Positions 25,894 to 26,088 of a stretch of 51,277 nucleotides of DNA are shown here, one piece after another; the stretch's first letter is position 1, and the number at the start of each line of letters is the position of its first letter. The notes below the pieces were generated by a model. That model ran no database searches. It was not told the DNA's origin and saw only the letters and a list, made by a program, of their open reading frames with translations. Made by a program: the position numbers and the translations under genes. Source of the stretch: a virus (taxonomy: Duplodnaviria > Heunggongvirae > Uroviricota > Caudoviricetes); IMG/VR virus record IMGVR_UViG_2851955134_000001; one strand, 5' to 3'.

Positions 25894-26088
25894 ATGTCAA
25901 CGAAGAACAAAACCCGCAGAACAACAACCCGCAACATCCGCTTTCCTAACCAAATGATTGAACAAATTAACATCGCTCTTGAGCAAAAAGGGTCCGGGAA
26001 TTTCTCAGCCTGGGTCATTGAAGCCTGCCGTCGGAGACTAACGTCAGAAAAGAGAGCATATACATCAATCCAAAGAGATGATGAATAA
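25894..26088 (+). CDS. small ribbon-helix-helix-like DNA-binding protein (orphan)
   Basis: 64 aa; predicted beta-strand then two helices (NIRFPNQMIEQINIALEQ...FSAWVIEACRRRL) typical of RHH regulators; ATG at 25894. Confidence 0.45.
   Translation: MSTKNKTRRTTTRNIRFPNQMIEQINIALEQKGSGNFSAWVIEACRRRLTSEKRAYTSIQRDDE

What the first reader, a model, noticed from the sequence alone, without database searches (positions are those of the whole stretch)
25894..26088. Orphan ribbon-helix-helix protein between cos and the moron
A 64-aa protein with the strand-helix-helix signature of RHH (Arc/MetJ/CopG-type) regulators is encoded on the strand opposite to the packaging genes, right before repeat copy A. 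RHH proteins are usually antitoxins or repressors, but no toxin partner is adjacent, so it may regulate the downstream module or be the remnant of a split toxin-antitoxin pair.
Basis: partly seen in the sequence, partly recalled or inferred. Interest (0 to 1): 0.4.

Follow-up and report, generated by a model that had tools for sequence, protein, structure and literature searches.

The report
YlcI/YnfO small phage gene beside cos
The 64-codon gene is real and strongly conserved, but it is an ordinary copy of the already catalogued YlcI/YnfO (DUF3950) family found next to the packaging genes of lambda-like phages, most likely a small ribbon-helix-helix DNA-binding regulator and not a leftover antitoxin.

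The parts
25894..26088 (+). YlcI/YnfO (DUF3950) gene, 64 codons plus stop
   Evidence: ORF list. Pfam PF13132 73 bits against cut-off 25. NCBIfam NF041551 37.7 bits against cut-off 30. phrog_949 E=3.6e-35. Exact protein on 382 contigs named YlcI/YnfO. dN/dS 0.03-0.10.
25883..25886 (+). weak Shine-Dalgarno-like GGGG, 7 nt before the ATG
   Evidence: Read directly from the sequence. 434 annotators mark a ribosome-binding site at the equivalent place. HNH-type homologues have a stronger GAGGAAA there.
25906..25944 (+). basic N-terminal arm (KTRRTTTRN) and predicted beta-strand N-I-R-F (residues 5-17)
   Evidence: I15 and R16 are invariant and F17 nearly invariant in 116 sequences. The segment aligns with the Arc strand FNLRW in hhalign. 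It is extended in the AF2 model.
25948..25989 (+). predicted helix A (residues 19-32)
   Evidence: AF2 model built on 116 sequences, block pLDDT 80-85.
26002..26043 (+). predicted helix B, conserved part (residues 37-50, motif NFSAWVIEAC)
   Evidence: F37 and V41 are invariant; S38, W40, A44 and C45 are at least 90% conserved. AF2 helix 37-62.
26044..26085 (+). variable C-terminal tail (residues 51-64)
   Evidence: Homology between phage types is lost after about codon 50, and the tails are replaced among YlcI, YnfO and HNH-type variants.
25683..25694 (.). cosN (context): AGGTCGACGCCC, one mismatch from the reverse complement of the lambda cohesive end
   Evidence: Read. The lambda cohesive-end sequence is from my own knowledge. 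The region aligns with the lambda and 434 right ends.
25718..25724 (.). cosQ (context): AGGACCC
   Evidence: Corresponds to the cosQ feature annotated in phage 434 and is conserved in alignment A2.
25730..25746 (.). 8-1-8 perfect palindrome ATGATAAT-A-ATTATCAT between cosQ and the ORF; overlaps a - strand promoter-like site (GTGACA-16-TATCAT)
   Evidence: the repeat finder I3 and the promoter scan. Conserved in Nu1-type phages only. No link to the protein has been shown.
26089..26267 (+). conserved downstream spacer shared with 434 and L021; its last 108 nt are direct-repeat copy A
   Evidence: Alignment A7 and repeat D3. No unusual RNA structure (z = -0.15).
26319..27513 (-). IS5 insertion (context) with TTAA target duplication
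   Evidence: Terminal inverted repeats GGAAGGTGCG.. and ..CGCACCTTCC flanked by TTAA. DDE transposase. L021 has the uninterrupted junction.

Best explanation
This is an ordinary copy of the YlcI/YnfO (DUF3950) accessory gene of lambdoid phages. It is a self-contained 64-codon module at the junction between the lysis genes and the packaging genes, on the strand opposite to the late operon. Shown: it is a real gene under strong purifying selection, it belongs to that family, and it holds the same position in lambda, 434, DLP12/Qin-type and HK97-like (HNH-terminase) prophages. Best-supported inference: residues 12-50 fold as a ribbon-helix-helix unit that dimerises. The paired N-I-R-F strands would then insert into the DNA major groove. 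N14 and R16 would be the base-contacting side chains, I15 and F17 would sit in the core, S38 would cap helix B, and the basic arm KTRRTTTR would add backbone contacts. Further inference: it acts as a small transcriptional repressor or regulator made when late transcription is off, in the prophage or before the late phase. The orientation suggests this, because late transcription would collide with it. Its core is about 90% identical across phages whose other modules differ, so its target is probably also conserved (host DNA or a common phage site). The target is unknown. It is not an antitoxin and not a dedicated regulator of the neighbouring cassette.
Confidence: 0.6

Rival explanations
1. 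It is a packaging-linked DNA-binding accessory factor. The protein would act at or near cos, or with the terminase/HNH proteins, for example by marking or protecting the first-entering DNA end or by restraining cos cleavage in the prophage, rather than as a general transcription regulator.
For: It always abuts the start of the packaging module in two unrelated terminase types: Nu1/A, and HNH-TerS-TerL. It is 200 nt from cosN and points inward from the DNA end. From my own knowledge of lambda, that end is the one injected first. Natural fusions exist of DUF3950 to the N-terminal helix-turn-helix of a Terminase_2 small terminase (P0244 and P0186).
Against: It is on the strand opposite to the late operon, so it is not co-expressed with the packaging genes. 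The cos-side DNA is not conserved together with it. A phage-plasmid with an intact Nu1/A module has deleted it. In satellites it lies far from their terminase genes, in the regulatory zone.
Confidence: 0.15
2. One reading: it is the antitoxin remnant of a split type II toxin-antitoxin pair.
Against: No toxin-like gene is adjacent in the window or in any of ten contexts inspected, and the downstream gene is not conserved. The C-terminal tail is short and freely replaced. dN/dS of 0.03-0.10 over deep divergence argues for a maintained function of its own, not a decaying remnant. No PADLOC hit.
Confidence: 0.04
3. One reading: it regulates the downstream cassette (IS5 plus two unknown genes).
For: Physical proximity only.
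Against: The cassette genes (27582..28076 and 28155..29186) are on the - strand, convergent with the ORF. The cassette is in 27 genomes and the ORF region in 4782 of 5426. The cassette occurs without the ORF in pEC21Z151-46K. IS5 is a secondary insertion.
Confidence: 0.03
4. It is a chance ORF in DNA that is conserved for cos function.
For: It lies within 400 nt of cos, a region conserved at the DNA level in lambda-like phages. RefSeq lambda does not annotate it.
Against: Substitutions against HNH-type copies fall overwhelmingly on third codon positions, and dN/dS is 0.03-0.10. Homology starts at the ATG. Homologues at 35-45% identity keep the same motif in other genera and in contexts without lambda cos.
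Confidence: 0.01

Closest known systems
YlcI (DLP12 prophage) and YnfO (Qin prophage) of E. coli K-12; Pfam DUF3950 (PF13132), NCBIfam NF041551, phrog_949
   Same: The sequence passes both curated cut-offs. The exact protein already carries this name on 382 contigs. The position beside the Nu1-like small terminase gene and the orientation are the same. Function is listed as uncharacterised (PMC11551758).
   Different: Nothing essential. There is one substitution in the arm (K6 for R6), and the C-terminal tail is a variant of the YlcI type.
Unannotated lambda ORF at complement 48109..48303, and CPT_434_77 of phage 434
   Same: One amino-acid difference in the first 49 residues (full translations). 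Same distance from cosQ/cosN.
   Different: In 434 the gene is followed by bor after about 360 nt. Here a cassette of two unknown genes, later hit by IS5 and flanked by a 108-nt duplication, separates them.
Arc and Mnt repressors of phage P22 (Arc family PF03869), the archetypal RHH repressors
   Same: Small phage-encoded proteins. The strand motif N-I-R-F-P aligns with N-L-R-W-P in the same register, followed by helix A, a G-x-S-type loop and helix B. Some family members hit Arc-like PHROGs.
   Different: No significant Pfam Arc match. The hhalign probability is only 29% and covers the strand and helix A only. The genomic place differs (cos junction, not immI), and the operator is unknown.
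RHH DNA-binding domains of NikR, CopG-family antitoxin CopA_SO and TacA1
Stl/Rpr master repressors of Gram-positive PICIs (functional analogy for the satellite clade of DUF3950)
   Same: A divergently transcribed small regulator gene facing the replication/packaging operon, with repeated operator-like palindromes between them. The arrangement of the Gram-positive repressors is described in PMC6092414.
   Different: A different fold family; no experiment exists. In the satellites the gene points towards alpA/int rather than lying in the same direction as int. The lambda-type copy has no such operator cluster.

Membership tests
DUF3950 / YlcI-YnfO family | Scores above the curated Pfam PF13132 and NCBIfam NF041551 cut-offs | tested here: met
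   73 bits against 25; 37.7 bits against 30.
DUF3950 / YlcI-YnfO family | Conserved core motif K-x-I-R-F-P ... N-F-S-A-W-V-x-[ED]-A-C | tested here: met
   Every invariant or at least 90%-conserved core position of the 116-sequence alignment is present in the window protein (I15 R16 F17 P18 I25 N36 F37 S38 W40 V41 A44 C45 L49), except K13 and K48, which are arginine here.
DUF3950 / YlcI-YnfO family | Lambdoid-prophage position between the lysis genes and the small terminase gene, antisense to the late genes | tested here: met
   for the window. The same holds.
Ribbon-helix-helix (Arc/MetJ/CopG) superfamily | Topology: N-terminal beta-strand, helix A, short loop, helix B | tested here: met
   AF2 model: extended residues 1-18, H19-32, H37-62, core pLDDT 79-87. 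A strand cannot be scored in a monomer.
Ribbon-helix-helix (Arc/MetJ/CopG) superfamily | Significant structural similarity to solved RHH domains | tested here: inconclusive
Ribbon-helix-helix (Arc/MetJ/CopG) superfamily | Significant profile match to a curated RHH family | tested here: inconclusive
   No significant Pfam RHH hit (none for the window protein; one member hits RHH_6 at E=0.092). The window protein hits Arc-like phrog_228 at E 0.15 and HicB-like phrog_497 at 0.023. Other members reach 6.8e-4 and 8.3e-5. hhalign against Arc: P 5.8e-4, probability 29%.
Ribbon-helix-helix (Arc/MetJ/CopG) superfamily | Obligate intertwined homodimer that binds DNA through the beta-ribbon | not testable with these tools
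Arc family (PF03869) | Match to the Pfam Arc model | tested here: not met
   No hit at E up to 1 or, for the 20 members, up to 10.
Type II antitoxin | Adjacent co-transcribed toxin gene | tested here: not met
   None in the window or in lambda, 434 and seven other contexts.
Type II antitoxin | C-terminal toxin-neutralising extension conserved with the partner | tested here: not met
   The tail after residue 50 is short and is replaced between variants.
Known anti-phage defence components (PADLOC) | Match to a PADLOC model | tested here: not met
   No hit at E up to 0.01.

The most novel reading that the evidence does not exclude
The lambda-type YlcI may be the helper-phage paralogue of a DUF3950 ribbon-helix-helix repressor that appears to control Gram-negative PICI and helper-embedded satellites, for which the literature says no master repressor is known. 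On this reading the two cross-talk: the helper protein would heterodimerise with, or compete at the operators of, the satellite repressor, or the reverse. That would make this small gene beside cos a determinant of satellite induction or interference. A weaker version is that lambda has an overlooked lysogen-expressed DNA-binding regulator 200 nt from its right end.
Probability: 0.1. Interest if true: 0.65.

Novelty: already known. Interest (0 to 1): 0.3.

Why it matters
For this window the result is mainly a correction. The "orphan RHH" is a routine, catalogued gene (YlcI/YnfO), not a remnant of a toxin-antitoxin pair and not tied to the cassette. The wider point is that a gene present in lambda itself and in most E. 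coli genomes, under very strong purifying selection, still has no known function. The fold evidence and the satellite contexts gathered here give a concrete, testable hypothesis: a small RHH DNA-binding repressor. The same family may supply the missing repressor of Gram-negative phage satellites.

Tried and rejected
- phmmer and hmmsearch against PDB sequences gave nothing significant. There were only in-register weak hits to a CopG-family protein (E 1.1) and CdbA (E 0.42), plus chance hits to uL16 and short pAgo.
- Pfam scans of 20 members at E up to 10 gave no recurrent RHH family.
- The Rpp protein of E. coli PICIs was considered as a relative because of the cos link. It was rejected because it is a winged helix-turn-helix protein (PMC6739421).
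- Operator search: the satellite-type GTGT-N4-ACAC motif is not enriched in the window, and no + strand promoter was found by the consensus scan. The palindrome at 25730-25746 could not be tied to the protein.
- Rfam found nothing in 25300-26400. The RNA fold of the downstream spacer is unremarkable.
- Literature searches for YlcI, YnfO and DUF3950 returned only lists and mutation tables. The lambda ribosome-profiling paper and the Casjens-Hendrix review are not held.
- Many first-search hits (about 3.5 kb ENA contigs, noisy sequences) look like nanopore lambda control DNA and were excluded from the alignments.

Full report
OBSERVATION. The window is a lambdoid prophage drawn in reverse of the lambda convention. 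The large terminase is at 23061..25046 (-) and a Nu1-type small terminase at 24961..25470 (-). cosN (25683-25694) and cosQ (25718-25724) can be read directly by comparison with the lambda and 434 right ends. The ORF therefore starts 200 nt from the cohesive end and points away from it, antisense to the late operon.

Downstream lie, in order:
- a conserved 179-nt spacer whose last 108 nt are repeat copy A (26160-26267);
- an IS5 (26319-27513, with TTAA duplication);
- two unknown - strand genes;
- repeat copy B (29148-29255);
- bor (29389..29730, +);
- Rz and the lysozyme gene (-).

IS IT A GENE? Yes. Pfam DUF3950 matches at E=1.8e-20 (73 bits, cut-off 25). NCBIfam YlcI_YnfO_N scores 37.7 bits (cut-off 30). 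phrog_949 matches at 3.6e-35. The exact 64-residue sequence is already in public collections on 382 contigs, named YlcI/YnfO family protein.

The same ORF is present in phage 434, where it is annotated as DUF3950. It is also in lambda at complement 48109..48303, where RefSeq NC_001416 annotates nothing. The 861-nt region around it matches 4782 of 5426 complete E. coli genomes.

I aligned the window, lambda, 434 and a Qin-like phage (all Nu1-type) with three prophages whose packaging module is HNH-TerS-TerL. Similarity begins exactly at the ATG and fades near codon 50, and the upstream DNA is unrelated. Over the first 49 codons the window differs from the HNH-type copies at 25-29 positions, of which 17-24 are third codon positions. 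This gives dS 0.82-1.73, dN 0.06-0.08 and dN/dS 0.03-0.10. So this is a discrete protein-coding module under strong purifying selection, not DNA conserved for cos function.

FOLD. In 116 aligned members, I15, R16, F37 and V41 are invariant. F17, P18, I25, N36, S38, W40, A44 and C45 are at least 90% conserved. That is an alternating polar/hydrophobic strand (N-I-R-F), a helix, a short G/S/N loop, and a second helix starting at S38.

Direct tests gave mixed but convergent results:
- A first AlphaFold model from 20 sequences was poor (pLDDT 67.6) and found nothing useful.
- A second model from 116 sequences reached pLDDT 75.5, with 79-87 in the core. It shows an extended N-terminus and helices 19-32 and 37-62.
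- At sequence level, 8 of 20 family members hit the HicB-like phrog_497 (best 8.3e-5). 3 hit Arc-like phrog_228 (best 6.8e-4), and others hit two further Arc-like PHROGs.
- I built an Arc-family alignment from a search seeded with P22 Arc; all hits carry PF03869. It aligns to the DUF3950 core with P=5.8e-4 in the register NIRFP/NLRWP, but at only 29% probability and over the strand and helix A only.
- Pfam RHH models are not matched at any useful level (one member only, RHH_6 at E=0.092), and PDB sequence searches gave only weak in-register hits.

I rate the RHH fold at about 0.75-0.8. The defining intertwined dimer could not be modelled.

PARTNER OR ORPHAN? The downstream neighbour is different nearly every time:
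- bor on the same strand after about 360 nt in 434;
- lambdap79 (convergent), then lambdap78, in lambda;
- a DUF1398 YbcV gene 43 nt downstream in a Qin-like phage;
- a convergent Rha, TonB-like or Rz gene in others;
- the two-gene cassette in L021.

The only constant neighbour is the start of the packaging module on the other side. The C-terminal tail is short and freely exchanged. That rules out a conserved toxin partner.

The cassette genes are convergent with the ORF. They occur in only 27 genomes, and in one phage-plasmid they occur where the ORF has been cleanly deleted. So the ORF is not their dedicated regulator, and it is dispensable for that element.

WHAT RELATIVES SUGGEST. An exhaustive search of 1.84 billion representatives found only 138 clusters, many of them sequencing noise. 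A profile of the divergent members retrieved a clade spread over Enterobacterales, Pasteurella and Gilliamella.

I sampled contexts in six genera: Proteus, Klebsiella, Dickeya, Yersinia, E. coli and Pasteurella. In each the gene sits in an island with the order int - (cargo) - alpA - (Bro/AntA) - DUF3950 - small genes - primase - ... - capsid. This is the Gram-negative PICI / helper-embedded-satellite type. There it is the only opposite-strand gene within the satellite core, apart from one unnamed ORF near the capsid gene in a few loci. It lies about 205-227 nt divergent from the small-gene/primase operon.

That intergenic region carries two or three copies of a palindrome whose centre differs by element. 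Examples are GTGTTTAAACAC three times in Dickeya, GTGTGTAGAC.. three times in Yersinia, GTGCACAAACAC in Proteus, and two copies of TGGTACGTACCA flanking a TATAAT in an E. coli satellite. This is the anatomy of a repressor-operator switch.

The PICI literature states that a global repressor in Gram-negative PICIs is unclear (PMC6092414). The satellite papers do not mention this gene. Two satellite proteins fuse DUF3950 to the N-terminal helix-turn-helix of a Terminase_2 small terminase, which again places DUF3950 among DNA-binding modules. All of this is context-based inference about a paralogous clade only 35-45% identical to the window protein.

MECHANISM FOR THE WINDOW GENE. Most likely (0.6) it encodes a dimeric RHH DNA-binding regulator made when late transcription is silent. 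Transcription of ylcI in uninduced K-12 is reported as a ybcW-ylcI convergent overlap (PMC12288877). Its core is about 90% identical across phages whose other modules differ, while satellite paralogues diversify along with their palindromes. This suggests the lambda-type protein has a conserved target.

I could not find that target. No + strand promoter is evident. There is no satellite-type operator cluster. The 8-1-8 palindrome beside cosQ (25730-25746) is specific to Nu1-type phages and cannot be linked to the protein.

The main rival (0.15) is a packaging- or cos-linked role. It is suggested by the invariant juxtaposition to the packaging genes, the terminase-domain fusions, and the fact (from my own knowledge) that the lambda right end enters the cell first. 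The gene's antisense orientation and its dispensability argue against this rival.

COMPARISON AND NOVELTY. The gene is a member of the YlcI/YnfO (DUF3950) family by every feature tested. It works most like Arc/CopG-type RHH repressors, but it is not a member of the Pfam Arc family, and it fails the defining feature of an antitoxin. As a finding in this window it is already known and ordinary. The family's function is listed as uncharacterised (PMC11551758). The satellite observation is the only potentially new lead, and it lies outside the window.

VERDICT. Observation confirmed. Interpretation partly supported: the RHH fold is likely, while the antitoxin-remnant and cassette-regulator ideas are not supported. 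Novelty: already known. Interest 0.3.

Noticed in passing
L004 (NC_001416) 3110..3304 (-), i.e. lambda complement 48109..48303: RefSeq lambda has no annotated gene here, although the 64-codon YlcI-type ORF is intact and differs from the window copy at only one of the first 49 residues. Other records (434, PGAP prophages) do annotate it.
   Followed up: yes
L007 5590-6363; L022-L029 about 5775-6200; L012 4778-5032; L011 4714-5103: In Gram-negative PICI / helper-embedded satellites of six genera, a DUF3950 gene is essentially the only opposite-strand gene. It is divergent from the primase operon and preceded by 2-3 element-specific palindromes (GTGT-N4-ACAC type). It is a candidate for the master repressor that the PICI literature says is missing.
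   Followed up: partly
L007 6001-6363 (P0244, 120 aa); L011 4714-5103 (P0186, 129 aa): These are natural fusions of a DUF3950 domain to the first ~50 residues (helix-turn-helix) of a Terminase_2 small terminase, encoded in satellites that also carry a full TerS. They might bind helper or satellite packaging sites.
   Followed up: partly
L012 (OR544138, Pasteurella 'phage' Pmp7) 4435..5109 (-): The 224-aa ORF annotated as 'transcriptional repressor' is low-complexity and lies antisense to a well-conserved DUF3950 ORF (4778/4853..5032, +). It is probably a mis-annotation. The 10.7 kb record looks like a PICI-type satellite.
   Followed up: partly
window 26160-26267 and 29148-29255; 27582..28076 (-) and 28155..29186 (-): A two-gene cassette with no Pfam or PADLOC match is inserted into the ylcI-bor spacer and flanked by a 108-nt direct duplication of that spacer. 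The cassette is found in 27 complete E. coli genomes, annotated as hypothetical proteins.
   Followed up: partly
window 26319-27513: IS5 with a TTAA target duplication is inserted between the ORF's downstream spacer and the cassette. L021 shows the uninterrupted junction.
   Followed up: yes
window 25730-25757: A perfect 8-1-8 palindrome, ATGATAAT-A-ATTATCAT, lies 5 nt beyond cosQ. It overlaps a - strand promoter-like site (GTGACA-16-TATCAT, 10/12) that points towards cos and Nu1. It is conserved in Nu1-type phages and imperfect in lambda.
   Followed up: partly
L020 (plasmid pEC21Z151-46K) 2516-3062: This lambda-like phage-plasmid has a clean deletion of the YlcI ORF, running from near the cosQ-side palindrome to just past the stop codon. 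It keeps Nu1/A and the two-gene cassette.
   Followed up: partly
one search hits P0001-P0120 (ENA contigs of about 3.5 kb; proteins labelled Staphylococcus aureus, Veillonella, Klebsiella): Hundreds of noisy, frameshifted copies on ~3.5 kb contigs look like the lambda-derived nanopore control DNA assembled into unrelated projects. They inflate apparent family diversity and host range.
   Followed up: no
window 723-1997 and 6820-7341: There are 22 overlapping copies at a 45-nt period inside the 577-aa ORF 592..2325 (-). There are also three 174-nt tandem repeats inside the 1238-aa ORF 6297..10013 (-). Both are probably repetitive tail-fibre or tail-tip domains.
   Followed up: no
L016 5001-5180: A DUF3950 homologue (P0152, 59 aa) sits directly after cytochrome bd-type oxidase genes and before a DUF2474 gene in a bacterial chromosome. 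This context has no obvious phage or satellite genes.
   Followed up: no
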